A stretch of DNA of 64,000 nucleotides from an uncultured Candidatus Woesearchaeota archaeon (GCA_963724455.1 CAVRUV010000006.1:63158-127157), one strand, 5' to 3'; positions 1-27,270 are shown, counted from the first letter of the stretch. The notes: a model not told the origin generated them from the letters alone. Translations and numbers: made by a program.

Positions 1-3000
1 GTTACCAACAATACAGTTTCATTCAACTACACTTCAATGGATACATATTCTCCGTCGATGACTTGTAATTTAACAATTAACGGAACAGTATACTTTTCAA
101 ACACTAATGTTGTAAATGGAACAAATCAAAGCTCTAAAGTAACCATGCACGGCGGCAATGCATCGTATATTTGGAATGTTAGTTGCAACGATAGATCGAG
201 TAATCGCAATACAAGTGAGACTAGAACATTCTATGTTATTGCTCCGCCGGCAATAACGCTTGTTTCTCCAAATAATAATGCGCTCATTTTCGGAAATGCA
301 ACATTTGTCTATAAGCCATATGATCCATATGGACTAATCAATTGTTCACTCATTGTAGATGGTGTAATTGTTAATACAACTTCATCTCCAACAAACAATA
401 GCAACAACAATCTCTACGCCGAAGGCATATTGGGTGGACAACATAACTGGACTGTTGGTTGTTTTGATGTTGATGGTGATTATGGTACCGGACCATACAG
501 AACGATTAGCAATGACCAAACACCGCCGATTGTATTTTCAGAATTCCCTGAAAATGGAAATTATACTCCTAGTAGCACCACAATATTTGGGTGGAATGTA
601 AGTGATGATATTGCAACACAGTTAAGTTGTAGTGTCTATATTGATAGCATCAACAGATCAACCGTGCTTACAAATAATGGTAGTCGTGCAAATGCAACAA
701 TAATAAGAATTGCAGATGGATTGCGTTGGTGGAATGTAACTTGTGTTGATGGGGGAAATAATGCAAACACCAGTGCACCGCGTTCGCTCACTGTAAATCA
801 AACACCAACGCTTACAATACAAAATCCTATAAATAATTATCAAATAAATGTCAGCACAATACTGTTCACATTCACCCCATCAGATAATGATGGTTTTACA
901 AATTGTTCTTTATATTTGAATGGAACAATATATTCCGCAAATACTAGCGCAATCAACAACAGTAATCTCAATAATATCTCTGCAACGTTAACTACTGGAA
1001 AATATTATTGGGCCATTGAATGCATCGATAATGGAACATACTTGAATAGAAATATGAGCACAGATCGCAACATCACTATCAATCTCATACCTCCACGTAT
1101 CGACCTCAATTTGCCTGGTGGTGGTTTTGCAAGCACGGATTCTTGGGTTGTGTTCAATTGGACAGGATATGAGACTTTCCAGCAGAATATTGTGTGTAAC
1201 CTCAGTATTGATAGCATAATAAGCGCAACAAATGTTGTAACCTCTCATGCAGCTACCACTGCAAGAAATATCACAAACATAAATGATAGCAATAATCACT
1301 ATTGGAATGTTAGTTGCGCGGATCCTTCTGGAAACTACAACATTAGCGAGACTCGTCAATTCAGCGTTCAAGAATCTCCAAAAATAACACTGGTTGCTCC
1401 AGCAAATAATACTAGAACAAATAATGCTACACTAAATTTCACATATACTCCGACAGATAATTCAGGCATAATAAACAATTGCTCGCTTATTATTAATGGA
1501 CAAATCAACTCGACAAACAACACCATATATCCTGGAGTTCAAAATAATTTTACCGTAACTGGATTTGGCAATGGAACATATTACTGGAGTATAAACTGCA
1601 CAGATCCTAGCAGCAATACAGGTAATAGTGTACAACGAATATTGCTAATCGACCAAATTGCTCCAGTAATAATATTATATGATCCTGCAAATAATAGCAA
1701 CAAGACTGATGATGTTATGTTTAATTGGACGGCCTATGATTCTGCAGCATCAATAACATGCAATCTTACTTTAGATGGGGTTGTAAATGCAACAATAATT
1801 TCTAGTTCTGGTTCTCAATTCTATCGTCTAGTACAAAATAATAGTTATGGATACCACTATTGGAATGTTACTTGTGTAGATGACTTTGGACAATCAAACA
1901 TAAGCGATACTTACATATTCAATATTCCACCCGCGGAGCTATACATAAATGAAAGCATGATACGCTTCAATAATACTAACCCCAATATTAATGAAACAAT
2001 ACTCATCAGAGCAAATGTAACTAATGTTGGTGGAGTAGATGTGCCGAATGTCACAATTGCATTCTGGGATGGATTACCTTCTGGCGGCGGAATATACATA
2101 GGTAATGTTAGCATAACTATTGCGGTAAATCAGACAGTTACTGCAAATATTTCGTGGAACATAACTTTTGGTATGCACACGATATTTGTTGCAGTAGACC
2201 CAGAAGGAAATATAATAGAAACCTCAAAATTAAACAATAACGCGTCAAGAAATATTAGCGTCTTGCGCGTTAATATACTCACACCGGCAAATGCGTCTGT
2301 TTCTTCTTCTACTACTCCGGCAATAAATTTCACTGTACAAAATGATAGCGGTGGAGATTTCATGTATAAAATATTCGTAGACGGTTCTGCAAATGGTCAA
2401 CAAGGACTCATTACAGATAATACAAGCATTCTCTTAAATATAAATGCACTAAGTGAAGGATTGCATAGAATAATTGTACAAGCAAATGATAGTGCAAAAA
2501 TAAAAAACAGCACCGCTCTTTTTATTACAATAGATACTACCCCTCCTGTTGGAGTATTTTTAACTCTCAATAATACATTCTTTACTGGAACGCCATTGAA
2601 TATAACATTTAGATTAAACGATACTTACGATGCAAATATTGATTATGCAATTTTCGTTAATAATGTCTTGAATATAAGCGGTGTTGTGCCTAATGCAACT
2701 AATACTAACGGAACTCTTACAACGCTCGCAAATGGAATCTATACTTTAATTTTACAAGGACTAGATGATGCAGGCAATATCCAAAATAATACTCCAATAA
2801 ACATATTCGTCGACGGCATAACCCCAAGTCTTGTACAAGATTATCCCGCAAATGGCGCATCTTTTACAAATAGAAGTGTAACTATAAATTTCACTATAGG
2901 TGATAATCTAGATCCTTTATTGCAGTGTAATCTCACCTTTGATGGTACAGTAATTAGACCGTTATTAAACATCAGCAATGGCTCGCAATACAATACAACA

Positions 3001-4860
3001 CTAAATAATCTTGCTGAAGGAACGCATAGTTGGTATGTTGCTTGTTGGGATGGAAATAATGTAGTAAATCAAGTTAATAATCTTAATATAAGTCCTACTT
3101 GGACCTTTGGAGTATACATTAATCCTCTTGTAACTCTTGTTTCTCCTCCAAATAATACAATCACAAACAATCAAACAATAATATTTTACTATAATGTAAG
3201 TGATGAAACTGGTCTTGAAAATTGTAGTATTTTCATTAATGGAACGCTCATTGCAACAACATACACCACAAATATTACCAATAATGCAACGAATAACTTT
3301 ACATTAAACAATCTCAACAATACAAATCTTTGGTCTATTTCTTGCATAGATAATACAACTGCGAACATGATTAACACGACTGTAAATAGAACCATCACTA
3401 TAGATACAATCCCCCCAACAACCATAATTTATACACCCGACTATTCTTGGTTTAATACAAGCACTCCGCGAATAAATATAACTGCAACTGATAATTTTGC
3501 AGCAACAATAAATTGGAGTGCGTTTGTAAATAATAACTTTAATGCAAACGGCACAGTACCTAATGGTGCATCTTCATTGATACAGCTATCAGCACTTGCT
3601 GATGGAATATATGCTGTACTTGTACAAGGAAAAGATGATGCTATAAATGCGCAAAACAGCTCTAGCATCACAATTTATGTCGATACAACTGCTCCGAACA
3701 TAACCTTGCTCACCCCAATAAATGATAGCAATCTATCAGTAACGAATGCGTTGCTGAATTTTACAGTAACTGATAATCTTGCTGCAATCATGCCTTGTAA
3801 TTTAACATATGATGGCTCTGTTGTGGCTGCATATAATTTAACAAACGGTAGTTATGGATTCATAAATATTACAAGCATCCCTAGTGGATATCATTATTGG
3901 AATGTAACTTGCGTAGATAATGCGAGCAATAAAAAAATAAGTCCTACATTCAGATTCTTTATACAAATGCCAGATCTTGCAATTACAACAGACAATATTA
4001 CATTTAGCAATGATACACCTATTGAAAACCAGACAATACAAATTAATGCAACTATATTCAATATAGGATTGTTAGACGATCTTAATGCTACAATAAGATT
4101 CTACCTCGGGGATCCTTCTAGCGGCGGAGTGCAACTTGGTTCAAATCAAAGTGCTAGCCTCCCTATAGGAAGTAACATCACTGTAAGCATCTATTACAAT
4201 GCAACAATTGGTTTACAACAAATCTATGTGCTCGTAAATGGTAGTAATACTGAATCTAACTATACAAACAATAAAGCGCATAAAGATTTCTGGGTAGGGC
4301 TCTTTGAAATATTTGCTGGAAGTTCGGCTAATGACTTGCATATCGGCGACGCCGGCTTCATCTCTGCATTTAGTTGGAATGAAACAAATGTTACGGGAAG
4401 CAATGTATTTGTAGTAGATTCAGAAAGCAATATTGTATTCACTAGATTACAAGCTTTGGGAATAAATATATCAAACGGTACAAGTGCTGGAGCAAATGAC
4501 TTTGCTGAACTTGATACAAAATTAGGAACTACGTTGCTCAATGACAGCATTAATAGAACATTTACTTCCACAGGAGTTCCAAAAACATACGGCAGCATTG
4601 TTGCATTCAAAAATACTATCAATAATGTTTCGATAATAAATAGCACAAATACTGCTTCATTTATTACAGGAATACTCTGGGATACTTCTGACGGTGGATC
4701 ATTCTACAATGGATCACAAGATATTGTCTTTGTTACTGTAATGAATCAAAGTAAAGTAGGACAATATGGAACTTACGACTATGAAATTGCTGTACCTGCA
4801 AAGCTTCGTGATTATATCAATGGGGGAGGAACAATCACATTCTATGCCGAGATAAAATAG
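1..4860 (+). CDS. Giant secreted surface (glyco)protein, 5'-partial: the reading frame is open from nt 1 and the track start at 37 is an internal Met. It carries tandem ~100-aa two-Cys modules, Big-like domains and a CARDB-like domain.
   Basis: 1607-aa ORF with codons 1-36 in frame and no stop. At least 10 copies of a module end in the signature [YW]-W-x-V-x-C-x-D-x-x-G-N...S...R-x-F, each with two conserved Cys. A CARDB-like segment (NETILIRANVTNVGGVDVPNVTIAFWDGLPSGGG) is present. N-x-S/T sequons run at roughly one per 10-12 residues throughout. Confidence 0.8.
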   Translation, partial: VTNNTVSFNYTSMDTYSPSMTCNLTINGTVYFSNTNVVNGTNQSSKVTMHGGNASYIWNVSCNDRSSNRNTSETRTFYVIAPPAITLVSPNNNALIFGNATFVYKPYDPYGLINCSLIVDGVIVNTTSSPTNNSNNNLYAEGILGGQHNWTVGCFDVDGDYGTGPYRTISNDQTPPIVFSEFPENGNYTPSSTTIFGWNVSDDIATQLSCSVYIDSINRSTVLTNNGSRANATIIRIADGLRWWNVTCVDGGNNANTSAPRSLTVNQTPTLTIQNPINNYQINVSTILFTFTPSDNDGFTNCSLYLNGTIYSANTSAINNSNLNNISATLTTGKYYWAIECIDNGTYLNRNMSTDRNITINLIPPRIDLNLPGGGFASTDSWVVFNWTGYETFQQNIVCNLSIDSIISATNVVTSHAATTARNITNINDSNNHYWNVSCADPSGNYNISETRQFSVQESPKITLVAPANNTRTNNATLNFTYTPTDNSGIINNCSLIINGQINSTNNTIYPGVQNNFTVTGFGNGTYYWSINCTDPSSNTGNSVQRILLIDQIAPVIILYDPANNSNKTDDVMFNWTAYDSAASITCNLTLDGVVNATIISSSGSQFYRLVQNNSYGYHYWNVTCVDDFGQSNISDTYIFNIPPAELYINESMIRFNNTNPNINETILIRANVTNVGGVDVPNVTIAFWDGLPSGGGIYIGNVSITIAVNQTVTANISWNITFGMHTIFVAVDPEGNIIETSKLNNNASRNISVLRVNILTPANASVSSSTTPAINFTVQNDSGGDFMYKIFVDGSANGQQGLITDNTSILLNINALSEGLHRIIVQANDSAKIKNSTALFITIDTTPPVGVFLTLNNTFFTGTPLNITFRLNDTYDANIDYAIFVNNVLNISGVVPNATNTNGTLTTLANGIYTLILQGLDDAGNIQNNTPINIFVDGITPSLVQDYPANGASFTNRSVTINFTIGDNLDPLLQCNLTFDGTVIRPLLNISNGSQYNTTLNNLAEGTHSWYVACWDGNNVVNQVNNLNISPTWTFGVYINPLVTLVSPPNNTITNNQTIIFYYNVSDETGLENCSIFINGTLIATTYTTNITNNATNNFTLNNLNNTNLWSISCIDNTTANMINTTVNRTITIDTIPPTTIIYTPDYSWFNTSTPRINITATDNFAATINWSAFVNNNFNANGTVPNGASSLIQLSALADGIYAVLVQGKDDAINAQNSSSITIYVDTTAPNITLLTPINDSNLSVTNALLNFTVTDNLAAIMPCNLTYDGSVVAAYNLTNGSYGFINITSIPSGYHYWNVTCVDNASNKKISPTFRFFIQMPDLAITTDNITFSNDTPIENQTIQINATIFNIGLLDDLNATIRFYLGDPSSGGVQLGSNQSASLPIGSNITVSIYYNATIGLQQIYVLVNGSNTESNYTNNKAHKDFWVGLFEIFAGSSANDLHIGDAGFISAFSWNETNVTGSNVFVVDSESNIVFTRLQALGINISNGTSAGANDFAELDTKLGTTLLNDSINRTFTSTGVPKTYGSIVAFKNTINNVSIINSTNTASFITGILWDTSDGGSFYNGSQDIVFVTVMNQSKVGQYGTYDYEIAVPAKLRDYINGGGTITFYAEIK
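240..3960 (+). repeat. Protein-level tandem repeat: about 10 copies of a ~100-aa module (consensus P-x-I-x-L-x-x-P-x-N-N...F-x-Y...D...C-S-L-x-x-N-G...G-x-Y-[YW]-W-x-V-x-C-x-D-x-x-G-N).
   Basis: Recurring motifs YIWNVSCND, HNWTVGCFD, RWWNVTCVD, YYWAIECID, HYWNVSCAD, YYWSINCTD, HYWNVTCVD (twice), SWYVACWD and LWSISCID at roughly regular spacing. Confidence 0.7.
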
Positions 4861-4944
4861 ATGAAAAATAAATAAAAAATGAATTAAAATAAAAAATATT
4901 TGGATAAAATTACATGAATAAAAATAACAGATAGGAATTAGAAA

Positions 4945-13900: not shown

Positions 13901-15480
13901 ATATGCTTGGAAATTTAAGTGTTAATATTGTAGCACCTACAATTGATCCGTATATAGGAGAAGGAGAAAATCTCACTTTTACCTGTCAAGTTAATTGCAC
14001 TAATGGTTACTGTTTAAAAGTTGAAGTGTTGGGACAAATAAACAATAGTACGGCAGTATATTCTCCTATTAATTATTTTACAGAAAATATCATACTTAAT
14101 CAAACGGCAGTAAATCCTGTTCTTCTAGGCACGATAAACAATACTATGAATGCAACAATTGAATTATTAGGCAACATCTATAGTTTCAATAATACACTTC
14201 TTTGTAATGTGAGTAGTGATTATATTAACGCTACGAGTGCGATAGAAAACATCACTGTGCTTGATAAAGTTCCTCCAAACATAATACTTGTAGATCTTAT
14301 TAATGGAGGCGCATACGATCCTGGCTTGTTTACATTTATCTATAATGCGAGCGATAGAAGATTGGGTGCTTGCTCATTATGGGGTAATTGGAGTGGTTCT
14401 TGGACACTCAATCAGACAATGATTCCAAATAATTATACTTTATCTTCATTCCCACAAATAAATATCAGCCAATATGGTAGTTTTATATGGAACGTGAACT
14501 GTAGTGATCTTGCCGGCAACAATGGCATGGCACCAGCAAATTATACATTCTATGTGGCGGGAGATGTTTCTGTAACCGCAAACGATATTTTCTTTTCTCC
14601 AACATCACCCACAGAAGGATCGAATGTAACAATATATGCAATAATTACAAATAATGCAAATAGAAATGAAACAAATGTAAACGTTGCGTTTTATGTTGGT
14701 GATCCTCAGTTGGGCGCACCACAATTAGGGGGGAATGTGACCATATCATTATTGGAAGCAAAATCTAATGTTACTGTAAATAACAGTGTGATTGTGGCTC
14801 TGGGAAATCTTAGTATTTATGTTGTAGTAGACCCTGCATATGGTGGAGGAAATATAATAGAATCTAATGAAACTAACAATATTGCAAATAACACTTTACA
14901 AGTTTCTATTTGGCAAAGCTTTTTTGGAAATACCTCGGGAAACACAACACTCGGCACTTCTTCTAATGCGTCATTCATTAGCTGGAGTGCTGCATCAATA
15001 AGTGGAAATATTTATGTTGCTTGTACGGGAACGACAAATGGTATTAGTTTTTTAGCATTGCGTCCTTTGGGAAAAAATAGCACCAATGGTGTTAATGTAA
15101 ATACTTTAAACGATTTTTCAGAACTCGATGCTGTAATTAATACAACACAATATCTCGATAATATAAATAATACATATACTTCGTCTGGTGTACCAATCGC
15201 GATGCAAAACTTTAATGTTTATGGCAATACATATAGTTTGCCTGTTGCAAATTCAAGTAGTGATGGAAATTTCACAACAGGAATAATGTGGGACTCTGAC
15301 GATTCTATCAATTCATATTATGATGCTGCCGATAAAGAAGATGTGGTCTTTGTTACAAAAATAAAACAAAACACCACAACAATATACGGTGCTGTTGATT
15401 ATATAACAAAATTCCCCTCACCACTCAAAGGAATGAAGGGTGGAGCAAACACGGTGACAATATACTATGAAATCAACTAA
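4945..15480 (+). CDS. Giant (3511 aa) secreted surface glycoprotein with a Sec-type signal peptide. It combines several domain types: the two-Cys modules shared with the upstream ORF, a DUF2341-like plus LamG/concanavalin-like unit, three FN3-like repeats, a W-N-G-S-A-W propeller-like repeat, a CARDB-like domain, and a ~190-aa C-terminal domain paralogous to the C-terminus of the upstream ORF.
   Basis: N-terminus MKKRYKRNF...IVFFLSVISLFLINLLSVQA|AS has a basic n-region, an h-region and an AXA site. DUF2341-like signature NFNFDIAKRNGSDIRVLL...IPLWIEWWN...ASVWIQLPYLNASGNKTVYLYYSS at about 9530-9760 is followed by a lectin-like beta-sandwich at about 9790-10400. CARDB-like segment at about 14581-14880 (NVTIYAIITNNANRNETNVNVAFYVGDPQLG...NIIESNETNN). 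The C-terminal domain at 14918-15477 aligns with nt 4300-4857 of ORF1 (shared ...TSSGVP...ILWDTSDG / IMWDSDDS...DIVFVT / DVVFVT...). Confidence 0.85.
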   Translation: MKKRYKRNFTNQKTLRIIVFFLSVISLFLINLLSVQAASISQYSYSVGETIIIHPAPGTNELSLKFANQTFKYLGAPDNSIAYTPKIPGEYIIEELFNDGRILETKFYVAKSDLNWNGVGKGNDSAQEINNTEIIINNTNNTNTNTNNNLNNNTNNNIKNNTPLINSTNVIFNTTIKLIQDDNSPVDSGNAPLLQQGDSNLLMITPQLDNIISLKTGTLVTKIVNEMDSRQANKRIKLVSPRNTVWKGNFIVRDKGTTYRGNLADLGANPPLSAGTEIEITPEVDSIKNIVMRNVDMRKDIQIGIDEPVYTTIDSPRENRTWVNAFAIDPTNVSFTDATVYATAVGTELYKCKDWSFNTSTCDGVWIKVMDIVPGQDYTITITPNDPGFAEAVITTGTTNLGDISNISISASIVSPFESWPTATSIIVNNPTNQSINVSAVKFSSPTAIFGVVTGVMPATGWSRTTTIVNWSGSMIIPPYSSEDFIVNITGSNTNNVNAIVSINATTNITNLTRTGYVTHTILTTAIQSSSLTFLNSSGMPVCYLPNVLQNTSTAYTVSVNNYPGDAAVQLNTLFLIHVPQGWENLSANAQTGWSVGTANGDPGSGMFLNAKVATTTIASGAARNFTFSATPPDEDGTSLYQPYIRLIGPSASTTRDIYTVFEPTLQSVNITSLLNYDDGLYAETRTYGGSQLVDHYISIPTPAESTANQWGLVVVNPTNNPINVTQIDWGANQNIFNTVAAITPAATWSVQSASALRWNGTVTIPARSAAEFRANVGLLGNANLIASISVTTTTTNRTIVSSEFTTMMLNRNTQYPSIMGVNRTGSQTYLMDNISAATRYNFTIRINNTGGLVTVPIGTKLEITIPPGWFNITAATQTGWTIYDITQNSNRGGGLIRAITATTTIANGGTRNFLFNATAPNVGSNSTYRIDVRLLGPSASNVAYSIQSLAQIAARVVPAPATYGLSVTHLSESIGNSSNVSSIIITSIAKSTWPTSYNLSIYNTQTAIYDTISTLTLNNTPINTTILLVANRTFNPQKYVNQTLGTTNYGKVLVGWFTTTGNTTSLLEDLLIINITQDIQPPFVVLHAPENDSYLNISLQSLQYNASDDTDLMNCSLYINGILNSTNNSITNASTNAFVINFSNGRYNWSVGCYDLVSKTNRTDNQSFVIDTILPIVGLTSPTAVSNWSVNSLIFTYTPQDTNLANCSILLDGIINQTNTTPLSGLQNNFSILNIPDGLHYWNISCIDLAQNMNSSVTWNFTIDVTAPIWNSPNAAPDSNVVYDPANTHDFDMNWTDGNGISTVIFMENFTGNWVNHTTTQNGDIYAYATSAIGVGSYAWRMYANDSYNNLNMSDLQTYVVQKATPEIMLLLNDTIDNYPIDINESVNITALMITPATGYLEIYLNGTLIASGNNAVQNISTFNTSGKKNVTVVYPSTQNYTGTSTTLFIVIGDKTGPAINQTSPDNGGFRGMVNTTFTFNASDDTGIDNCTLLIRNNISDTTSWWSINWSARQKIIIQEQSGANLSNYSVQLLLNSTNFNFDIAKRNGSDIRVLLINNSGTQQQIPLWIEWWNQTTKNASVWIQLPYLNASGNKTVYLYYSSPSAKSVSDGNTTFLIFGEFSVNRIGTYWQSADNDLVAGTSFNILNNVLNITAGGVDTWTVNDEYGSIFRSISGDFIAEIKVLSQQNTNAWAKAGIMVRNNMSARASSLGYAYATVTPGHGYSFETDVVSQNGFLDTNVTSGATSYPSMLRLFKVGNIFGMQYSTNNGSTWTSISPNQTLSTANYTQDVGLSVTSRAGATLSRVIFDDFIVRRYSSIAPTITYGRVDAFFENNTNLGPYTVPFEGTFDVRGLFEANMSSKIYCYDPIGNIGYSKITNFTVDFTSPSSVTLLTPTNNSINRNQSPQFTWTQTTEPYFANYTLILDTAADFSSPNYAIAITPITNTTLLFNETLLPNVAWYWKIRSYDFAGNYNDSLSFIYRIDISPPEITLQSPQNNTYYNITAINITYLINDFSIVANCTLSLNDSTTYVNSSLNQTNQNIFTITKSAADCLYNITCTDITNNFNTTENVLFHIDTSAPTQVSLLTPINNTFTNNNTPTLTWSQTVENHFANYTVLVSDNSTFPYTNYTYTIYDLSTTNYVVITPWSDGIWYWKIIVWDLAGNSVDPGFVYTLDSTPPNAFDLLSPVNGTSDVSSTPNLVWYPSDDLYFTNYTVLVSDTNTFSHNNYTYATYNATNTSYQVSTPWTTNTIWYWKVLAYDNATNVQNSSSTFMYIADTDNPVVKLVAPPNSTSYASNSSLIPFTFNVTDLSDISSCTLYVNGSVDSFASDMFFIDKNVNQTFITALSSDNYNWSVSCIDAAGNTGYSAVWNISINVTLPKQRWYDTALENTPQTNASQNWSAMIVYGNATAAAIVNTVPKYRIWDGNAWSAESSLPDSGSPLRWVKMASSPILSRASEKIAVTLSNDGWLDAYVWNGSAWTAYNNIASVGTTNNAYGSFDIEYENQRGRAMLLYAVNSTNSAEDLAYRIWNGSGWQPQVGVNDPLNTTDISVGYIKLVKNPDSSSNELASAYIDVTDADARAMIWNGSAWQSFINITSAISIATEEDIGIAYEQQSKKILAVAGTGSTVAFAFYNRTSWNRTGTTDINPSAAVVTNWLTLKPNPVGNEIMIGGLDAGSDFSTALWSNGVWSGALRHDATSDGNTRRMADFEWESTGNNGIVMWGTTSGQVDYKTYNVGTGWGAQNNVVTSASTHAWIWLVKNPNNATGDVKILGGIEDAAALLEGVRWVGSTPPVRQANAFTTNQGSVTYRIFDIAYDNYAPRTTSYNNYSLNMSIDSTPNVVSIISSTTSGGLTLLNNATSYPMRNYSALGLLIPRGGIVRFSALLSSMNQNVSYITWSIFGVNSTSEVLICTKGNYTRNSSLAVPIDKNGINIYTGICSPQNNTIITPEKSLRVYMYINSSVENTITKFIDNLSTYVEIDGYMLGNLSVNIVAPTIDPYIGEGENLTFTCQVNCTNGYCLKVEVLGQINNSTAVYSPINYFTENIILNQTAVNPVLLGTINNTMNATIELLGNIYSFNNTLLCNVSSDYINATSAIENITVLDKVPPNIILVDLINGGAYDPGLFTFIYNASDRRLGACSLWGNWSGSWTLNQTMIPNNYTLSSFPQINISQYGSFIWNVNCSDLAGNNGMAPANYTFYVAGDVSVTANDIFFSPTSPTEGSNVTIYAIITNNANRNETNVNVAFYVGDPQLGAPQLGGNVTISLLEAKSNVTVNNSVIVALGNLSIYVVVDPAYGGGNIIESNETNNIANNTLQVSIWQSFFGNTSGNTTLGTSSNASFISWSAASISGNIYVACTGTTNGISFLALRPLGKNSTNGVNVNTLNDFSELDAVINTTQYLDNINNTYTSSGVPIAMQNFNVYGNTYSLPVANSSSDGNFTTGIMWDSDDSINSYYDAADKEDVVFVTKIKQNTTTIYGAVDYITKFPSPLKGMKGGANTVTIYYEIN
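10607..11770 (+). repeat. Three FN3-like protein repeats inside the 3511-aa ORF.
   Basis: LLTPTNNSINRNQSPQFTWTQT...FANYTLIL...WYWKIRSYDFAGN; LLTPINNTFTNNNTPTLTWSQT...FANYTVLV...WYWKIIVWDLAGN; LLSPVNGTSDVSSTPNLVWYPS...FTNYTVLV...WYWKVLAYDNATN. Copies start at about 10607, 11181 and 11479. Confidence 0.65.
12100..13340 (+). repeat. Six to seven copies of a ~60-aa repeat with the signature [IVL]-W-[ND]-G-[SN]-[AG]-W, consistent with a beta-propeller-like domain inside the 3511-aa ORF.
   Basis: RIWDGNAWS, YVWNGSAWT, RIWNGSGWQ, MIWNGSAWQ, ALWSNGVWS, (V)RWVGSTP, regularly spaced and interleaved with hydrophobic beta-strand-like stretches. Confidence 0.5.
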
Positions 15481-18400
15481 TTATGTTGGGTTAAAAAATG
15501 TTGGGTTAAAGAAATCTGTATTATTAAGTATTATAATTATGTGTTTGGTGGTAGTTACAATACTATTTTTTGTTAAGAGTGGTTTGGCACTTTCTATATT
15601 GTCTCCACAAGAAACAACATACAATACAAGTGATATTTATGTGTCTTATATTACAACTTATTCAAATAGCACTTTCTGCTCTATAAAAACTGATGGTGGT
15701 TTGTGGATAAACTCTTCTTTGTGCAAATCAATTTTCATAACTGCCCACGAAGGATATAATGTTGTACTTGTTGATGATGGTTATGAAAAAAAGAGTGTTG
15801 GTTATTATTTAGTTGCTCAAATAAATAATTCTAACAACACAATCCAAATAACACAAAATAATGATACTAGCTCATTAAACTTAGATTTGGGGGGAAATAA
15901 TAATAATTCAAATTTAACTTTTGTAGAACAAGATGATATAGATCCTCTAAGTCTTCTTCCCCAAGAAATACAAGATGAAATAATTCAAGGAGAACAAATA
16001 ACAAATGATGAGTTGGTATTACAAAATAAATTTACTTCACGTAGCCCAAGCACCGGCACAATAACTGTGGAGCATTCTCAATATGATTATCCTGCGGGCG
16101 TTTCTTTTAAAGCTCTTGTAAAAATACATAATACAGGACAAGATTCTGCTGTTGTCATTTCTCCTGCCGCGTTATATGCAGATATTCTTCAAATAACTAG
16201 GATTGATATTCAACCACAAACAAAAACGATTACAAAACCCATTTACTCTTCAACAATACAAGATGTTTGTACTATTGATGGTTGTGTAAAAAAAGAAGTT
16301 AAAAAAATTATACGAACTGAACGTGAAAATAAAATAGAAAAAATTGGCATCAAAAAACCGCTTCTAAAGGTTGAAGGTTTTGATTCTCGTTCAGAAAATA
16401 TTCGTAATTCAAAAGATCGTGCGCCTAAAACTGCAAAGTCTATTACTGCAAAAGACACTATTTATCCTGGAGAAGATGCTTATTATGAAATAACTTTTAG
16501 AGCATCTGGCAATGGAAATGATGAATTTTATATTCAAGCACTTAGTAATTCTATGGCAATAGGCCTTGATCCTTTTATTAGTTCTAATTGGACGCACATG
16601 AGAAACATCACTTTGCAAGAAACCTACAATATTACGCGCAATAATCAACTCGTGTATCTGAATTTGACAAACTTTAACGATGATAATTTACGTAATTGTT
16701 CAGAAGAAATTCGTGTAAGTAATAGTTCATTAGATGATGTTGCCGTTCGTATAATTGATGATGGTGGTAATTTAACGACGGGAAAATATTGTACAATTAC
16801 TTTTGGTGCGAGTGTAGTTGCATTACAAAATACAACTTACTATATTTATTGGGAAAATGTGAATGCTACGGCTCCTGCCGCCGCAATAGATGTTAATGAA
16901 TTATACAATCTTACTTGGACGCCTAGCGCAGTATATTTCAACACAACAGATTATGGAACTGCGGCCGATAACACTGATTATATGGCACCAACAATTGTAG
17001 ACTATGATTGTGATGGTAACTTAGATTTAGTGTACGGTCTTGATGATGGGGGGGTGTATTTGCGACGTAATTTAGGAAATAATGTTGTTCCTAATTGGAG
17101 TGCTACAACTACCGTGCTTGCAACAATTGGTGCAAATAGTGGTATTAGTTTTGGATTACTTTTTGGAGGAGATAATCTATTAGATATGGTTGTTGGTGAA
17201 AATACTGGTAATTTGAACTATTATGAAAACACTGGAACTTGTGCAAGCCCAATATGGACTGCTAGAACATTTTCAAATAGCACTGCCGATTTTGGAACGT
17301 GGAGCAGTCCTACTGTATATGATTATAATGGTGATGGTCTTACTGATGTTCTTATAGGAGTTAGTACTGGTTTGTGGAATTCTACAAGAAACTACAACAC
17401 TACAACGTTGCCCGCGTTTATAATTGACGGAATTACTGAACCAACTACTGATGTTGGTACTAATAATTTTCCATCTGAAGCCGATTTGAATTTTGATGGT
17501 GTTATTGATGTTGTTTCGGGAAATTCTGTGGGTAATGTTCGTCTCTTTCAAAACAATGGTACAATAACCTCTCCGTCATGGATTAATTGGGGGCTACTTC
17601 GTTATAATGTGAGTGGGGGTAGTATTGACGTTGGTAATAATGCGCACCCTTCATTATATGATATAAATGGAGATGGTTGGATTGATATGGTGTTGGGAGA
17701 AGCAATCGGCACAATTAGATCATCTTTGGGTGCCGGGGGGTTGGGAGACTATCTTATCAATGCTCCTCTTAATTATACTTTAGGAGAACAGAATATTCGT
17801 CCTGTTGTAAACTCTTTTAGTATAACACCTTCTCCTGCTTACAAAAATGGTACACTAAATTGCACCATCAATATAAGTGATGTTGAAAGCGACACTGTTT
17901 TGGTTAATTTTAGTTGGAGAAGAAATGGAACGGCACAACCTTTGCTTAACAGTTCTGTTGTTTGTCAAAATAACACTTTATGTTTGGCCGGGGTTATAAT
18001 AAATAGTTCACAATTCAACAATACCGACACTTGGACTTGTTCTGCGTTTGCAATTGATGGGGGTTGGAGAGTTTCTTATGATACTAATGTTAGCATACTT
18101 AATTATCCGACAGATTTTACTTTTTTCAACATCCCCGCGCCGATTGTATTGAATGCTGGAACAACAAAACTCATTAATTTTAATCTTAGTATTTTAGATT
18201 ATGATGGAAATACAACAATAAATTTGCGCAATATGAGCATATATCTAAATAATACTGCTCCTGGTGTTATTGATAATAATGTTTCTCATTATACCAATAC
18301 AACCTGTAGATTATTATCTGTAAGTCCATTAATGAAAAATTATACTTGTTCTTTTTTACTTAATTATTATGCAGTGAATGGTACTTGGATTGCAAATGCC

Positions 18401-18859
18401 ACAGTAAATGATACTTGGTCTATAATTACCGACATAATAAATTTCTCCATAGATCCATTATACGCACTAAATCTTTCTGTAAAAAATATTACTTTTGGAA
18501 ACTTGGCGGCGGGAGATATTTCATCTAATATTTCTATTATAACATATAATTTAGGAAATCAAAAAATAAACATTTCTTCCTATAGTTATGGACGAAATGT
18601 AGGAGATAATAATGGTTTTACTTGTGCATTTGGCAATTTAACTCCTGATGTAATCCATTATTCAAATTATGTTGGTCATAATTTTACTCAAAAATCAAAT
18701 CTTTCTGGATCTTCTTCTTTACTAAATCTTTCTGTGACTACTCAAATGAATTCAACTCTAACTTCAAATATTTCTTATTGGCAAGTTGGTGTTCCGGTAC
18801 TTACTCCTCTTTTGGGCTTATGTAACGGAACTATTGTTTTTCAAGCAGAAGCCGGATAA
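15467..18859 (+). CDS. Large (1130 aa) membrane-anchored or secreted surface protein with FG-GAP/VCBS-type beta-propeller repeats.
   Basis: ATG at 15467 overlaps the previous stop by 14 nt. N-terminal hydrophobic segment KKSVLLSIIIMCLVVVTILFF. At least four D-x-[ND]-x-D-G-x-x-D repeats (DYDCDGNLDLVYG, DYNGDGLTDVLIG, DLNFDGVIDVVSG, DINGDGWIDMVLG) at about 17000-17720. Numerous N-x-S/T sequons. Confidence 0.75.
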   Translation: MKSTNYVGLKNVGLKKSVLLSIIIMCLVVVTILFFVKSGLALSILSPQETTYNTSDIYVSYITTYSNSTFCSIKTDGGLWINSSLCKSIFITAHEGYNVVLVDDGYEKKSVGYYLVAQINNSNNTIQITQNNDTSSLNLDLGGNNNNSNLTFVEQDDIDPLSLLPQEIQDEIIQGEQITNDELVLQNKFTSRSPSTGTITVEHSQYDYPAGVSFKALVKIHNTGQDSAVVISPAALYADILQITRIDIQPQTKTITKPIYSSTIQDVCTIDGCVKKEVKKIIRTERENKIEKIGIKKPLLKVEGFDSRSENIRNSKDRAPKTAKSITAKDTIYPGEDAYYEITFRASGNGNDEFYIQALSNSMAIGLDPFISSNWTHMRNITLQETYNITRNNQLVYLNLTNFNDDNLRNCSEEIRVSNSSLDDVAVRIIDDGGNLTTGKYCTITFGASVVALQNTTYYIYWENVNATAPAAAIDVNELYNLTWTPSAVYFNTTDYGTAADNTDYMAPTIVDYDCDGNLDLVYGLDDGGVYLRRNLGNNVVPNWSATTTVLATIGANSGISFGLLFGGDNLLDMVVGENTGNLNYYENTGTCASPIWTARTFSNSTADFGTWSSPTVYDYNGDGLTDVLIGVSTGLWNSTRNYNTTTLPAFIIDGITEPTTDVGTNNFPSEADLNFDGVIDVVSGNSVGNVRLFQNNGTITSPSWINWGLLRYNVSGGSIDVGNNAHPSLYDINGDGWIDMVLGEAIGTIRSSLGAGGLGDYLINAPLNYTLGEQNIRPVVNSFSITPSPAYKNGTLNCTINISDVESDTVLVNFSWRRNGTAQPLLNSSVVCQNNTLCLAGVIINSSQFNNTDTWTCSAFAIDGGWRVSYDTNVSILNYPTDFTFFNIPAPIVLNAGTTKLINFNLSILDYDGNTTINLRNMSIYLNNTAPGVIDNNVSHYTNTTCRLLSVSPLMKNYTCSFLLNYYAVNGTWIANATVNDTWSIITDIINFSIDPLYALNLSVKNITFGNLAAGDISSNISIITYNLGNQKINISSYSYGRNVGDNNGFTCAFGNLTPDVIHYSNYVGHNFTQKSNLSGSSSLLNLSVTTQMNSTLTSNISYWQVGVPVLTPLLGLCNGTIVFQAEAG
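17000..17720 (+). repeat. FG-GAP-like calcium-binding propeller repeats (protein level).
   Basis: Four or more spaced D-x-[DN]-G-D-G-x-x-D-x-[VL]-x-G motifs. Confidence 0.6.
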
Positions 18860-19089
18860 TTTTTACCCTCTCCCCTTGATTTCTTATAGAAATGTTTTTT
18901 TAAATTTTTTGTTGTGTATATTCTTTTTTGGTTGTTATTTGTTGTTTTTTGTAGTTATTTGTTATTCTTTGTTGTTTATCATTCTTTTTTGTTATTTGTT
19001 GTTTTTGTCGTTTTTGTTTGTTATTACACTTGTTATTATTGTTATAAAAAATTTAACTTTATTTTTGTTTTGTTGTGTGTTTTTTGTTT

Positions 19090-19160
19090 TTTTATTATAT
19101 TATTATAATATATTTTTATTATATTATTATATCATATATAATATTATCTATATAGAAAAG
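19090..19160. repeat. TA/ATT alternating low-complexity block; candidate DNA-unwinding element.
   Basis: ttattatattattataatatatttttattatattattatatcatatataatattatctatata, located at the point where T-rich sequence switches to A-rich. Confidence 0.45.
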
Positions 19161-19287
19161 AAATAGAAAGAGAAATAACAATAAAAAAATATCAAAACAA
19201 AAAAAGAATAAAAATAAAAAAATCGTTTTAAAAGGCTTAAGAGGTCACAATTAAAGAAAACAGACAGCACAACAACACAAAATAAGA

Positions 19288-19317
19288 GTTCCATACGAAA
19301 CAAAGGGGAGGGATAGG
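19288..19317 (+). promoter_or_regulatory. ORB-like (Orc1/Cdc6 origin recognition box) element: dyad GTTCCATACGAAAC followed by G-string GGGGAGGGATAGG.
   Basis: The TTCCA-N3-GAAAC core plus a downstream G-run resembles the archaeal ORB architecture of a TCCA...GGAAAC dyad followed by a G-string. Confidence 0.5.
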
Positions 19318-19393
19318 TTTTTAAAACTCTATGTCGGGGTCTATAAACACCAATAGATATTTTTTCAAGCAGTAGAACTTAAATATTACCTAC

Positions 19394-19407
19394 GTTTCAC
19401 ATGGAAC
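19394..19407 (-). promoter_or_regulatory. Second ORB-like dyad, GTTTCACATGGAAC, inverted relative to the first (reverse complement GTTCCATGTGAAAC, 12/14 identical to element 1). It lies between a TATA-like box (cTTAAATAtta, about 19378-19389) and the cdc6 start.
   Basis: Inverted repeat pair 19288-19301 / 19394-19407. Its position suggests Orc1 autoregulation. Confidence 0.45.
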
Positions 19408-19413
19408 AGTTGG

Positions 19414-20910: not shown

Positions 20911-21012
20911 TACAGCACACACAATAAATACAACAAACAATACATAATTAATAGTATAATGCAACACAAAATACTTTTTTTATCCCGAAAACACACTCAG
21001 TAGGGAGCAAAC

Positions 21013-22650: not shown

Positions 22651-23096
22651 TTGATTATAAGCACACAATGAGTATTACCATACAAGAAGGTCAAGATGTT
22701 GCACAATGTTTTGCCGCAGGAAATCCATTAAGTTTTGTTGTAGAATTTGCAAAACAAGGATTAGTCCTAAATAAAAATAAATCCATCGTACAAGGAACCG
22801 GGAGTCTTTCTAGCGGGAACAATAGATTTTCTTTAACAATAGATGATTATTTTTTAAAAGAAAAAACTGTCAAAAAAAAGATGCAGATTAACAGATACAT
22901 TTTACAAGGAGAAAAAGATGGATTATGTTATGTTTGTATAGCGCAATCAACTCCAACAGGTGCTAGCATAACAATCGATGCCAACAATCAGGCAGCTCTC
23001 GACAAAACACTATTGGCGTTACAAGGAGCATACAATTTTCCTAAAAAATACAACGTAATCATCGAAAAAACAAGTTTTGAAAAAAAGAACACATAA
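22647..23096 (+). CDS. Hypothetical protein (149 aa), translationally coupled to DP1 (ATGA overlap).
   Basis: Clean ORF whose start overlaps the DP1 stop by 4 nt. No recognisable motif. Confidence 0.5.
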   Translation: MIDYKHTMSITIQEGQDVAQCFAAGNPLSFVVEFAKQGLVLNKNKSIVQGTGSLSSGNNRFSLTIDDYFLKEKTVKKKMQINRYILQGEKDGLCYVCIAQSTPTGASITIDANNQAALDKTLLALQGAYNFPKKYNVIIEKTSFEKKNT

Positions 23097-23156
23097 TACA
23101 TTAATAAAAAATAAAAAATCAAAAAAAGAGCAGCAAAAAAGAGTGTGTTGAGAACA

Positions 23157-23633: not shown

Positions 23634-23691
23634 AAAATACTAAAAAATGTTAAAAAAACTAAAACTAAAAAACTAAAAAAAAGATGCGCAC

Positions 23692-27231: not shown

Positions 27232-27270
27232 GTTTAGAATTTTAGAAAAAGTCGCCTTGAAGCAATCCTA

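What the first reader, a model, noticed from the sequence alone, without database searches (positions are those of the whole stretch)
1..18859. About 19 kb of three consecutive giant, heavily sequon-loaded surface proteins sharing modules and a paralogous C-terminal domain
The first ORF is truncated by the window edge at 1607 or more aa, the second is 3511 aa and the third is 1130 aa. All are co-directional, and the third overlaps the second by 14 nt. ORF1 and ORF2 share a ~100-aa two-Cys module with the signature W-x-V-x-C-x-D-x-x-G-N; ORF2 carries it at about 8180-8760, 11790-12080 and 14270-14560. They also share CARDB-like domains and a nearly collinear ~190-aa C-terminal domain (nt 4300-4857 versus 14918-15477). 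This indicates tandem paralogy followed by domain shuffling. Asn in N-x-S/T context occurs roughly every 10-12 residues across more than 6000 residues, which implies very heavy AglB-type N-glycosylation. A region of this kind is what one would expect for a host-attachment or S-layer apparatus in a DPANN-type episymbiont.
Basis: partly seen in the sequence, partly recalled or inferred. Interest (0 to 1): 0.6.

Follow-up and report, generated by a model that had tools for sequence, protein, structure and literature searches.

The report
Giant glycosylated surface proteins, DPANN archaeon
Three adjacent genes of a Woesearchaeota-type (DPANN) archaeon encode very large secreted proteins built of Ig-like modules and crowded with N-glycosylation sites; two of them end in a conserved 188-residue domain with no annotation and no detectable structural relative, which marks a family of at least 791 sequence clusters and probably docks these proteins on the cell envelope.

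Summary
ORF1 (1-4860, open at the window edge), ORF2 (4945-15480) and ORF3 (15467-18859) are co-directional, and ORF3 overlaps ORF2 by 14 nt. N-x-S/T sequons are enriched 2.3-2.8-fold over shuffles (z 8-14), only in that register. The other 32 window ORFs show no enrichment. Sequon Asn is better conserved in orthologues than other Asn. Spacing is 1 per 12/18/19.5 residues, not 10-12 throughout.

ORF1 and ORF2 share two-Cys Ig-like modules and a collinear roughly 450-aa end: Ig, CARDB, then a 188-aa C-terminal domain (CTD). ORF3 is not a paralogue. It has an N-terminal TM segment, FG-GAP repeats and a different conserved domain.

The CTD has no Pfam, NCBIfam, PDB or Foldseek match. It occurs in 791 50%-identity clusters and is always at the extreme C-terminus of proteins 160-6414 aa long. 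Named hits are almost all Woesearchaeota/Nanoarchaeota/Pacearchaeota MAGs; viral contigs have none. Related loci carry a recurring neighbourhood, including small secreted CTD-only paralogues.

Best reading: heavily N-glycosylated surface fibrils or adhesins, with the CARDB-CTD cassette as a shared envelope-docking or co-assembly module. The docking role is inferred. This is a new variant of a known kind and moderately interesting.

The parts
1..4860 (+). ORF1, a giant surface protein. Its 5' end is cut by the window edge (1619 codons or more). 14.7% Asn, 132 sequons.
4..1935 (+). ORF1: seven tandem two-Cys Ig-like modules of about 95 aa, signature W-x-V-x-C-x-D. The first is truncated.
   Evidence: HMM built from the repeats, i-E 1e-28 to 1e-35; Cys pairs
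1963..2247 (+). ORF1: first CARDB domain (aa 655-749)
   Evidence: Pfam PF07705, E 1e-9, above the cut-off
2269..2817 (+). ORF1: two Cys-less Ig-like modules (aa 757-939)
   Evidence: weak hits to the module HMM, i-E 2.5e-7 and 4.1e-6
2818..3975 (+). ORF1: two-Cys modules at aa 940-1138 and 1230-1325, flanking a Big_13-type Ig domain (aa 1137-1230)
   Evidence: (Big_7, Big_13)
4003..4278 (+). ORF1: second CARDB domain, directly before the CTD
   Evidence: Pfam PF07705, E 1.1e-6, 29.2 bits against a cut-off of 22.7
4294..4857 (+). ORF1: 188-aa C-terminal domain (CTD) with motifs NSTN..F.TGILWD, YG.YDYEI.VP..LR.Y and T..FY.E
   Evidence: E 2.3e-80 to the family profile
4945..15480 (+). ORF2, a 3511-aa giant surface protein with 196 sequons
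4945..5055 (+). ORF2: Sec-type signal peptide (MKKRYKRNFTNQKTLRIIVFFLSVISLFLINLLSVQA/AS). It holds the only hydrophobic segment of the protein.
   Evidence: the cleavage site is read by eye, not predicted by a tool
5767..6144 (+). ORF2: N-proximal conserved two-Cys domain (AFAIDPT...ELYKC...C.G.W...PG..Y..TP.DP.FAE). It is unannotated and shared with at least 24 of 39 other CTD giants.
8185..8745 (+). ORF2: two two-Cys Ig-like modules (aa 1081-1267)
   Evidence: (i-E about 1e-24)
9589..9840 (+). ORF2: DUF2341 domain (aa 1549-1632)
   Evidence: Pfam PF10102, E 4e-17
10612..12081 (+). ORF2: run of five Ig-like modules (aa 1890-2379). The last is a clear two-Cys copy (aa 2282-2379).
14272..14556 (+). 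ORF2: two-Cys Ig-like module (aa 3110-3204) that opens the shared terminal cassette
14590..14889 (+). ORF2: CARDB domain, directly before the CTD
   Evidence: Pfam PF07705, E 4.4e-11
14902..15477 (+). ORF2: CTD (aa 3320-3511)
   Evidence: E 2.6e-63
15467..15480 (+). 14-nt overlap of ORF2 and ORF3. The ORF3 ATG lies inside the Y-Y-E codons at the end of the CTD. The same arrangement is present in a related contig (L003).
15467..18859 (+). ORF3, 1130 aa with 58 sequons. Not a CTD protein.
15512..15574 (+). ORF3: N-terminal hydrophobic helix, a signal anchor or signal peptide
   Evidence: helix 16-34 in the otherwise poor model
17168..17371 (+). ORF3: FG-GAP / FG-GAP_3 repeats (best stretch aa 568-635; three stretches in all)
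17819..18856 (+). ORF3: C-terminal 'cluster 3' domain ending ...GLCNGTIVFQAEAG. It is homologous to roughly 320-aa membrane-anchored proteins encoded near CTD genes in 17 related loci.
   Evidence: (E 1.7e-51)

Best explanation
The three genes encode exported, very heavily N-glycosylated, non-enzymatic cell-surface proteins of a Woesearchaeota-type DPANN archaeon.

ORF1 and ORF2 belong to a large lineage-specific family. Its members have a Sec signal peptide, then a variable interior of disulfide-bearing Ig-like modules mixed with unannotated segments. They end in an invariant cassette: Ig, CARDB, then a 188-residue domain (CTD) at the very end of the chain.

Proposed mechanism:
1. The chain is exported through Sec and the signal peptide is removed.
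2. The oligosaccharyltransferase glycosylates most sequons, 5-12 per 95-aa module. The Ig stalk becomes a stiff, protease-shielded, glycan-coated fibril.
3. The CARDB-CTD cassette is the common 'foot'. It docks very different passengers onto one conserved envelope component, or co-assembles with the small secreted CTD-only paralogues encoded next to such genes in relatives.
4. The variable interior and N-proximal parts do the outward-facing work, most plausibly adhesion to a partner cell or a surface.

ORF3 is a membrane-anchored FG-GAP-repeat protein. It is translationally coupled to ORF2 and is a candidate partner or receptor for it.

Shown: the architecture, the sequon statistics, the family's distribution, the strict terminal position of the CTD, the conserved ORF2-ORF3 pairing and the recurring neighbourhood.

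Inferred: actual glycosylation, signal-peptide cleavage, the docking role of the CTD, the adhesive role, and any ORF2-ORF3 contact.
For: Export: ORF2 has a signal peptide and no other hydrophobic segment. All 46 full-length family giants with a signal-like N-terminus lack any further TM-like segment.

Glycosylation:
- Register-specific sequon excess, z 8-14.
- The excess is family-wide: 83 of 84 CTD ORFs in related loci have z > 3, median 5.9 sequons per 100 aa. The predicted cytoplasmic neighbour family has 0.32 per 100 aa.
- Sequon Asn is conserved 73/96 in an orthologue against 49/104 for other Asn, p = 4e-5.
- AglB is nearly universal in Archaea (PMC11407970).

Ig-like stalk: Big_7, Big_13 and CARDB hits, and paired Cys in each module.

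CTD as a shared foot:
- 791 clusters match the CTD profile at E <= 1e-3. In all 175 members checked the domain ends 6 residues or fewer from the C-terminus, there is never more than one copy, and protein lengths run from 160 to 6414 aa.
- Detectable similarity between family giants rises toward the C-terminus. The share of pairs with a hit is 17-32% in the interior, 71% in the 400 aa before the CARDB-CTD cassette, 97% for CARDB and 100% for the CTD.
- Minimal proteins of about 325 aa consist of signal peptide, CARDB and CTD only.
- Small secreted CTD-only paralogues lie in 45 of 81 related loci. hhalign gives 97% probability, E 1e-10.
- 19 of 81 loci carry tandem CTD genes.

ORF3 as a partner: it lies directly downstream of a CTD giant in both related contigs examined. 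The identical 14-nt overlap is present in one of them.

Lineage: archaeal replication genes in the window. MAG names of CTD hits. No CTD in 2.9 million viral contigs.
Against: - No experiment or tool here shows glycosylation, surface location or binding.
- No AglB gene was seen among the window ORFs I scanned with Pfam, and several small ORFs were not scanned.
- Between orthologues the CTD (52-57% identity) is not much more conserved than the rest of ORF2 (47-58%). Its special status rests on breadth across paralogues, not on rate.
- About half of family giants also share N-terminal similarity. Polarity, meaning which end is cell-proximal, is therefore not settled.
- The window itself contains none of the small CTD-only or coiled-coil neighbour genes.
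- The ORF3 model was unusable (pLDDT 38).
- Some CTD-bearing MAGs are labelled 'uncultured Methanosarcinales' and one is labelled 'Verrucomicrobia'. I could not check these labels.
Confidence: 0.55

Rival explanations
1. Reversed polarity. The N-terminal hydrophobic segment is an uncleaved signal anchor that holds the protein in the membrane. The strictly terminal CTD is then the distal head, a conserved lectin-like or receptor-binding knob presented at the tip of a glycosylated Ig stalk, as in fibre-knob or tip-adhesin designs.
For: - The CTD carries an invariant polar and aromatic motif set (N116, S117, F123, T125, G126, W129, D130, D69, D74, D162) that could form a ligand or metal site.
- Minimal proteins of signal peptide, CARDB and CTD make sense as short-stalk binders.
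- About half of the giants share a conserved N-terminal region that could be the cell-proximal base.
- The non-significant top Foldseek hits include adenovirus fibre knobs. At TM <= 0.19 these carry no weight.
Against: - Host-binding tips are usually the most variable part of such proteins. An example is the hypervariable C-terminal Ig domain of VARTIG proteins (PMC8416519). Here the C-terminal cassette is the one universally shared part.
- ORF2's N-terminus reads as a cleavable signal peptide (V-Q-A/A-S).
- Small secreted CTD-only paralogues, often two or more per locus (88 ORFs in 45 loci), fit a structural or co-assembly role better than soluble lectins.
Confidence: 0.25
2. The proteins are themselves the principal envelope layer (an S-layer or sheath) rather than accessory fibrils. 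The CTD would be the lattice-forming domain, and the giants would be lattice subunits with long outward extensions.
For: - No S-layer protein is known for this lineage. DPANN S-layers had not been analysed as of PMC6098224.
- Small CTD-only paralogues are abundant near these genes.
- High sequon density is typical of archaeal S-layer glycoproteins. The S. acidocaldarius S-layer glycoprotein has 31 sequons (PMC6098224).
Against: - Proteins of 3500-6400 aa with variable interiors, and several divergent paralogues per locus (35% identity between the CTDs of ORF1 and ORF2), are not what a single repetitive lattice subunit looks like.
- If anything forms a lattice, the small roughly 260-aa paralogues are the better candidates, and none is in the window.
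Confidence: 0.12
3. The sequon richness is a by-product of Asn/Ser/Thr-rich, AT-biased composition, and the proteins are not glycosylated to any notable extent.
For: The genome is AT-rich, about 36% G+C. The proteins contain 11-15% Asn and about 20% Ser plus Thr.
Against: - Composition-preserving shuffles give 2.3-2.8-fold fewer sequons.
- Other registers of the same residues sit at the shuffle level.
- Other proteins from the same DNA have 3-7% Asn and no excess.
- Sequon Asn is preferentially conserved.
Confidence: 0.04
4. The block is part of an integrated virus or mobile element, with fibre or tail-like proteins, rather than a chromosomal surface-protein locus.
For: Giant repetitive fibre-like proteins occur in viruses. 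The block sits at the edge of the window, so its upstream context is unknown.
Against: - No CTD relative was found in 2.9 million viral contigs.
- 186 loci were found in cellular genome assemblies.
- G+C content matches the rest of the window.
- The block abuts oriC, cdc6 and the PolD genes.
- No integrase, capsid or terminase appeared among the window ORFs I scanned with Pfam; several small ORFs were not scanned.
Confidence: 0.02

Closest known systems
Giant surface proteins of other DPANN archaea (the 'SPEARE' proteins of Nanohaloarchaeota, e.g. SVXNc_0300 at 9409 aa; PMC10266531)
   Same: A DPANN host with a small genome that still spends many kilobases on secreted proteins thousands of residues long. 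These have a Sec signal and tandem Ig/fibronectin-like domains and are presumed to mediate cell-cell contact.
   Different: SPEARE-type proteins are described as membrane-anchored and as carrying a VirB4/TraG-like ATPase domain, with a secretion ATPase gene downstream (PMC10266531). ORF1-3 have no ATPase or other enzymatic Pfam domain and no TM segment beyond the N-terminus. They end in the CARDB-CTD cassette and are far more sequon-dense.
Bacterial fibrillar adhesins with long Ig-like stalks (e.g. the 7651-aa Mobiluncus mulieris adhesin with 51 Ig-like domains; PMC10619420)
   Same: A signal peptide, a long stalk of tandem Ig-like domains stabilised by intradomain cross-links (here a conserved Cys pair), and terminal specialised domains.
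   Different: The bacterial proteins are anchored by sortase/LPXTG or by secretion-system retention modules (my own knowledge). Here there is no sorting motif or TM anchor. The stalk is loaded with N-glycosylation sequons, and the terminal domain is archaeal and lineage-specific.
Families that share one envelope-binding module among many passenger proteins: SLH-domain proteins, the Clostridioides difficile CWB2 cell-wall proteins, and S-layer-associated proteins (own knowledge; see PMC7090030, PMC8942822)
   Same: The logic is the same: one conserved module at a fixed end of the chain, many paralogues per genome with unrelated passengers, and small members that are little more than the module.
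   Different: There is no sequence or detected fold similarity. The ligand of the CTD is unknown, and archaea lack the secondary cell-wall polymers those modules bind. This is an analogy of design only.
VARTIG modules of Thermococcales (large Ig/CARDB proteins plus small genes that align to their C-terminal part; PMC8416519)
   Same: An archaeal locus with a large secreted Ig/CARDB protein with conserved Cys, neighbouring shorter proteins homologous to its C-terminal region, and a proposed role at the cell surface in self/non-self interaction.
   Different: In VARTIG the C-terminal Ig domain is hypervariable and is followed by a hydrophobic stretch and a DNNxxxGG motif. Here the C-terminal cassette is the conserved part. 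There is no hydrophobic tail, and that motif is not among the CTD's conserved motifs or C-terminal endings.
Archaeal S-layer glycoproteins (e.g. the S. acidocaldarius S-layer glycoprotein with 31 sequons; PMC6098224)
   Same: Secreted envelope proteins in which a high N-x-S/T density is taken to reflect dense N-glycosylation.
   Different: ORF1 alone has 132 sequons in 1619 aa. There is no evidence of lattice formation, and there are several divergent giant paralogues rather than one abundant subunit.

Membership tests
CARDB (Pfam PF07705) | Match to the Pfam profile above the gathering score | tested here: met
   ORF1: 38.9 bits for the whole protein, and 29.2 bits for the second copy scanned alone. 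ORF2 pre-CTD domain: 43.3 bits. The cut-off is 22.7.
Bacterial Ig-like domains (Pfam Big_7 PF17957 and Big_13 PF19077) | Match to the Pfam profile above the gathering score | tested here: met
   ORF1: Big_7 43.5 bits (cut-off 24.1), best stretch inside a two-Cys module (aa 1042-1097). Big_13 36.6 bits (cut-off 27). Most module copies are too divergent to hit on their own. They are linked through the module HMM.
Woesearchaeota-type CTD protein family (defined here; no database entry found) | A roughly 188-aa domain with the motifs NSTN..F.TGILWD and YG.YDYEI.VP..LR.Y, matching the family profile | tested here: met
   ORF1 E 2.3e-80 and ORF2 E 2.6e-63. ORF3 has no match.
Woesearchaeota-type CTD protein family (defined here) | The domain is the last element of the chain and is preceded by CARDB | tested here: met
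   The CTD ends at the last residue in ORF1 and ORF2. It ends 6 residues or fewer from the C-terminus in 175 of 175 relatives. CARDB lies directly upstream.
Woesearchaeota-type CTD protein family (defined here) | N-terminal signal peptide and no other membrane segment | tested here: met
   Met for ORF2 and for 46 of 46 full-length giants with a signal-like N-terminus. ORF1 cannot be judged because its N-terminus lies outside the window.
Archaeosortase substrates (PGF-CTERM / PEF-CTERM) | A C-terminal tripartite signal: short motif, hydrophobic helix, basic tail | tested here: not met
   No hydrophobic 19-mer other than at the N-terminus. The C-termini are ...TFYAEIK...IYYEIN and ...VFQAEAG. 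No NCBIfam hit.
Bacteroidota T9SS C-terminal sorting domain (Por_Secre_tail) | Profile match to the T9SS CTD, in an organism with a T9SS | tested here: not met
   No Pfam or NCBIfam hit at E <= 0.01. The organism is an archaeon. The resemblance is limited to 'a conserved beta-rich domain at the extreme C-terminus of diverse secreted proteins'.
SPEARE-type giant proteins of Nanohaloarchaeota | A VirB4/TraG-like ATPase domain in the giant protein and a secretion ATPase gene next to it (PMC10266531) | tested here: not met
   No ATPase domain in ORF1-3. The downstream gene is cdc6/orc1.
VARTIG module (Thermococcales) | A hypervariable C-terminal Ig domain followed by a hydrophobic region and a D[ND]NxxxG[GD] motif (PMC8416519) | tested here: not met
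   The C-terminal cassette is the most widely shared part of the family. There is no C-terminal hydrophobic region, and that motif is not among the CTD's conserved motifs or C-terminal endings.
S-layer protein | Self-assembly into a two-dimensional lattice that covers the cell; the dominant envelope protein | not testable with these tools
   Needs microscopy or proteomics of the organism, which is uncultured.
AglB-dependent N-glycoprotein | Occupied N-x-S/T sites and an AglB oligosaccharyltransferase in the genome | tested here: inconclusive
   The sequon statistics and their conservation strongly suggest use. No STT3/AglB hit appeared among the window ORFs I scanned, and the rest of the genome is not available. 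Site occupancy cannot be tested here.
Integrin-alpha-like FG-GAP beta-propeller (ORF3) | Seven FG-GAP blades forming a propeller | tested here: inconclusive
   FG-GAP_3 scores above the cut-off, with three matched stretches. The structure model was too poor to count blades (pLDDT 37.9).

The most novel reading that the evidence does not exclude
The CARDB-CTD cassette could define a previously undescribed archaeal surface-display system specific to Woesearchaeota and Pacearchaeota. In this reading, a roughly 190-residue domain of apparently new fold at the extreme C-terminus sorts or docks hundreds of different passenger proteins, up to 6400 aa long, onto an envelope scaffold. The scaffold would be built from the small secreted CTD-only paralogues, and the co-encoded membrane-anchored 'cluster 3' proteins (including the C-terminal part of ORF3) would act as the membrane link. 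Functionally this would parallel SLH/CWB2 or T9SS-CTD display in bacteria, and it would be the main host-contact apparatus of these episymbionts.
Probability: 0.3. Interest if true: 0.7.

Novelty: new variant of a known kind. Interest (0 to 1): 0.45.

Why it matters
Woesearchaeota and their relatives are among the most widespread uncultured archaea. They are presumed to live attached to other cells, but no attachment machinery or envelope protein is known for them. Published comparative genomics notes only that many Woesearchaeota/Pacearchaeota-specific families are extracellular and of unknown function (PMC8204110).

This locus gives that statement a concrete form:
- a family of at least 791 sequence clusters, recognisable by one terminal domain with no annotation and no detected structural relative;
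- a recurring gene neighbourhood;
- a sequon density of 5-12 potential N-glycans per 95-residue module.

It supplies a searchable marker (the CTD profile) for finding the surface proteome in any such MAG. It also yields specific testable predictions about docking, partners and glycosylation. Finally, it shows a contrast within a single genome between sequon-loaded, Cys-poor proteins and Cys-rich, sequon-normal secreted giants.

Tried and rejected
2. A profile search of PDB sequences with the CTD found only chance-level hits, best E 0.1. The same search with the N-proximal domain gave best E 0.17.
3. NCBIfam had no family for ORF1 or ORF2.
5. A homologue search with the whole of ORF2 timed out. 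The search with its N-terminal 1043 aa returned only two weak partial hits, named Nanoarchaeota and Micrarchaeota.
6. An exact look-up of ORF2 to recover DNA upstream of the window failed. The N-terminus of ORF1 and the upstream neighbourhood therefore remain unknown.
7. I tested whether ORF3 carries a diverged CTD, because the tails look alike (...TIVFQAEAG against ...TITFYAEIK). BLASTP gave E 0.88 and hhalign of the CTD against cluster 3 gave probability 0.2%, so this was rejected.
8. I looked for recent DNA-level duplication or phase-variable repeats in the coding region. None was found. The modules are ancient, with median 27.7% identity.
9. A viral origin was rejected.
10. Rfam and tRNA scans of the window found nothing.
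11. Literature searches found no description of this C-terminal domain or gene cluster. The library is incomplete, so absence is not proof.

Full report
**What is in the sequence.**
The first 18.9 kb of the window hold three co-directional open frames. ORF1 runs 1-4860 and is open from base 1, giving 1619 codons. ORF2 runs 4945-15480 (3511 aa). ORF3 runs 15467-18859 (1130 aa) and overlaps ORF2 by 14 nt. Frames this long in DNA of about 36% G+C cannot be chance. The rest of the window is an archaeal chromosome. It carries cdc6/orc1 (19414-20910), PolD small and large subunits, aIF2-beta, MCM and a TBP-like gene.

**Sequons.**
- ORF1, ORF2 and ORF3 contain 132, 196 and 58 N-x-S/T sites (x not P). 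Composition-preserving shuffles give 47.8, 85.1 and 23.4, so z is 14.5, 14.0 and 8.4.
- The excess is confined to the glycosylation register. In ORF1 the counts are N-x-S/T 132, S/T-x-N 50, N-S/T 33 and N-x-x-S/T 35.
- None of the 32 other ORFs in the window exceeds z 2.6. That includes other large secreted proteins.
- Spacing is one site per 12.3, 17.9 and 19.5 residues, or 16.2 overall.
- Each 95-aa module of ORF1 carries 5-12 sequons.
- In an alignment with an orthologue (L003), 73 of 96 sequon Asn are conserved, 71 of them as full sequons. For other Asn the figure is 49 of 104. Fisher p = 4e-5. A second orthologue gives p = 0.026.
- The sites are therefore under selection. This is the strongest indirect evidence available here that they are used.
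- No STT3/AglB hit appeared among the window ORFs I scanned. AglB is nearly universal in Archaea (PMC11407970).

**Architecture.**
A profile built from the ORF1 repeats finds 13 Ig-like modules in ORF1. Ten have a Cys pair about 40 residues apart and the W-x-V-x-C-x-D signature.

| Protein | Pfam assignments |
|---|---|
| ORF1 | Big_7, Big_13 and two CARDB domains |
| ORF2 | DUF2341 and one CARDB |
| ORF3 | FG-GAP repeats |

About 2400 residues of ORF2 and most of ORF3 match no Pfam family.

The modules are old. Median pairwise identity is 27.7%, and there are no DNA-level tandem repeats.

ORF2 starts with a Sec-type signal peptide and has no other hydrophobic segment. ORF3 has one N-terminal hydrophobic helix. 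None of the three has a C-terminal anchor.

**The shared end.**
ORF1 aa 1184-1618 and ORF2 aa 3062-3510 are collinear, with 32% identity and E 3e-44. This stretch comprises one two-Cys module, one CARDB domain and a 188-aa C-terminal domain (CTD) that is 35% identical between the two proteins, E 3e-34. ORF3 lacks it.

The CTD has no match in any of the following:
- Pfam or NCBIfam;
- PDB sequences;
- PDB or viral structures by Foldseek, using an AlphaFold model of fair quality (pLDDT 79, pTM 0.81, mostly beta). No hit reached E <= 0.001, and the best TM was about 0.2.

**The family.**
- A CTD profile finds 791 representatives of 50%-identity clusters among 1.84 billion proteins, 640 of them at E <= 1e-30.
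- In all 175 members I hold, the domain ends within 6 residues of the C-terminus and occurs once. Protein lengths run from 160 to 6414 aa.
- 46 full-length giants have a signal-like N-terminus and no further TM-like segment.
- Median sequon density is 6.0 per 100 aa. The two-Cys module occurs in 100 of the 175, with up to 28 copies.
- Wherever the sequence extends upstream, a CARDB domain precedes the CTD. Minimal members of about 325 aa are just signal peptide, CARDB and CTD.
- Among 40 full-length giants, the share of pairs with detectable similarity is 49% for the first 400 residues after the signal peptide. It is 17-32% in the interior, 71% in the 400 aa before the CARDB-CTD cassette, 97% for CARDB and 100% for the CTD.
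- Part of the N-terminal similarity is a second unannotated two-Cys domain, ORF2 aa about 275-400. At least 24 of 39 giants share it.

**Lineage.**
Named hits are 'Nanoarchaeota archaeon' MAGs. A scan of one genome per GTDB species finds 186 loci. Nearly all titles shown are Woesearchaeota, Nanoarchaeota/Nanoarchaeia or Pacearchaeota MAGs. There is also a block of co-assembly MAGs labelled 'uncultured Methanosarcinales' and one labelled 'Verrucomicrobia', which I could not verify. No relative exists in 2.9 million viral contigs.

**Context in relatives.**
ORF3 has only three homologues, at 41-45% identity. In both contigs that could be read, the homologue lies directly downstream of a giant CTD gene that is orthologous to ORF2, up to 49% identical over 1660 aa. 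In one of these contigs the identical 14-nt overlap is present, with the ATG embedded in the Y-Y-E codons of the CTD's last strand. ORF2 and ORF3 are thus a conserved, probably translationally coupled pair.

In 81 loci with 6-kb flanks, 19 hold two or more CTD genes in tandem. Three other families recur there:

| Family | Description | Loci |
|---|---|---|
| Cluster 1 | Secreted proteins of about 260 aa, 88 ORFs. They are distant CTD homologues (hhalign probability 97%, E 1e-10 over 169 columns). | 45 |
| Cluster 2 | Lys/Glu-rich coiled-coil protein of about 350 aa. It usually starts 17-250 nt after the CTD gene, is sequon-poor and has no signal segment. | 35 |
| Cluster 3 | Protein of about 320 aa with an N-terminal TM segment. 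ORF3 aa 785-1130 belongs to this family (E 1.7e-51). | 17 |

The window itself has no cluster 1 or cluster 2 gene. The locus runs straight into the replication origin region.

**Interpretation.**
The firm part is as follows. These are exported, non-enzymatic, modular Ig-repeat proteins of a Woesearchaeota-type archaeon. Their sequons are selected for. ORF1 and ORF2 are typical members of a large, unannotated, lineage-restricted family defined by a terminal CARDB-CTD cassette.

The inferred part concerns what the cassette does. I favour a shared docking or co-assembly 'foot', for four reasons:
- it is the one element common to passengers ranging from 0 to more than 6000 residues;
- it is fixed at the chain end;
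- it exists as stand-alone small secreted paralogues next to the giants;
- ORF2 and all 46 full-length family giants that have a signal-like N-terminus lack any other anchor.

This is the design logic of SLH or CWB2 proteins in bacteria, without any homology to them.

The main rival reverses the polarity, with an N-terminal signal anchor and the CTD as a distal binding knob. The data do not exclude it. Between orthologues the CTD is not markedly slower-evolving than the rest of the protein, and half of the giants also share N-terminal similarity.

A primary S-layer role, a compositional artefact and a viral origin are each less likely. The reasons are given under the rival explanations.

**Comparison with what is known.**
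Giant secreted Ig-repeat proteins are already known in DPANN archaea (Nanohaloarchaeota; PMC10266531). Lineage-specific extracellular families of unknown function have been noted for Woesearchaeota and Pacearchaeota (PMC8204110). The Thermococcales VARTIG module pairs a large Ig/CARDB protein with small genes homologous to its C-terminal part (PMC8416519).

The present family differs from each of these:
- it has no ATPase domain;
- it has no C-terminal hydrophobic signal;
- its C-terminal cassette is conserved rather than hypervariable;
- it has an unannotated terminal domain;
- it has an extreme sequon load.

I found no description of this domain or gene cluster in the searchable literature, but that library is incomplete.

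**Verdict.**
This is a new variant of a known kind, giant DPANN surface proteins. It is moderately interesting, chiefly because the CTD gives a handle on the unknown envelope and attachment biology of a very widespread uncultured lineage.

Noticed in passing
window 18860-19413: This is the lowest-G+C stretch of the window (0.29), lying between ORF3 and cdc6/orc1. An AT-rich core is flanked by an inverted pair of ORB-like boxes, CTCCCCTTGATTTCTTATAGAAAT at 18870-18893 and GTTCCATACGAAACAAAGGGGAGGG at 19289-19313. A mini-ORB (GTTCCATGTGAAAC, reverse strand) lies at about 19394-19410. This is very probably the replication origin, so the giant genes sit directly beside oriC.
   Followed up: partly
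window 38691-42527, 48174-50465, 50529-55148, 60929-62881, 62897-63805: A second set of large secreted proteins has signal peptides and many cysteines (60, 51, 93, 18 and 24 Cys). Their sequon density is ordinary (z <= 1.5) and they have almost no Pfam matches. The same genome therefore carries two contrasting kinds of extracellular giants: glycan-loaded and Cys-poor, against Cys-rich and sequon-normal.
   Followed up: partly
L002:8728-14276 and 44 other related loci (e.g. L020, L043, L012): A recurring neighbourhood surrounds CTD genes in Woesearchaeota-type MAGs. It comprises a K/E-rich coiled-coil protein with a ...HVN..KNDFa.Wi motif immediately downstream, two to four small secreted CTD-like proteins, a membrane-anchored 'cluster 3' protein of about 320 aa, and in 8 loci a small HTH protein. 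None has a Pfam family above the cut-off.
   Followed up: partly
window 4840-4857, 15460-15477, 18836-18856; cluster 1 and cluster 3 proteins in related loci: Secreted families of this neighbourhood end in a similar last strand. CTD proteins end ...T(V/I).FY.E(I/L)x, cluster 1 proteins end ...YYF(W/Y).E(I/L)x, and cluster 3 proteins and ORF3 end ...CNGT(V/I).F.AExx. Cluster 3 shows no detectable homology to the CTD. This could be a shared C-terminal signal or a coincidence.
   Followed up: partly
window 5767-6144 (ORF2 aa ~275-400): A second conserved, unannotated domain with two invariant Cys and an invariant D-P (...LTP.DP.FAE) is shared by most family giants. In three relatives it is followed by an alpha-2-macroglobulin-type MG2 domain.
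   Followed up: partly
window 15467-15480 and L003:7835-7848: The ORF3 start codon is embedded in the Tyr-Tyr-Glu codons that end the CTD of ORF2 (TAC TAT GAA). The same 14-nt overlap occurs in a contig whose proteins are only 42-49% identical. The third relative (L002) has a 160-nt gap instead.
   Followed up: yes
P0017-P0023, P0028 (relatives found with the ORF1 CTD): A subfamily of minimal proteins (signal peptide, CARDB, CTD; about 325 aa) has a 13-residue insertion in the CTD. It also has a short extra tail ending in a conserved Cys (...FFLDMDSICS), which suggests a disulfide link to a partner.
   Followed up: no
L005, L007, L010, L015, L022, L023 and about 18 further loci; L059: Many CTD-bearing contigs come from co-assembled MAGs deposited as 'uncultured Methanosarcinales archaeon', and one comes from a 'Verrucomicrobia bacterium' MAG. 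Several carry the same Woesearchaeota-type neighbour families, so these labels are probably taxonomic misassignments or binning errors.
   Followed up: no
window 19414-33300 and 36376-36972: Replication and initiation genes are clustered next to the origin: cdc6/orc1, PolD DP1 and DP2, a dNMP 5'-nucleotidase-like gene, aIF2-beta, MCM, and a TBP-like gene on the minus strand.
   Followed up: partly
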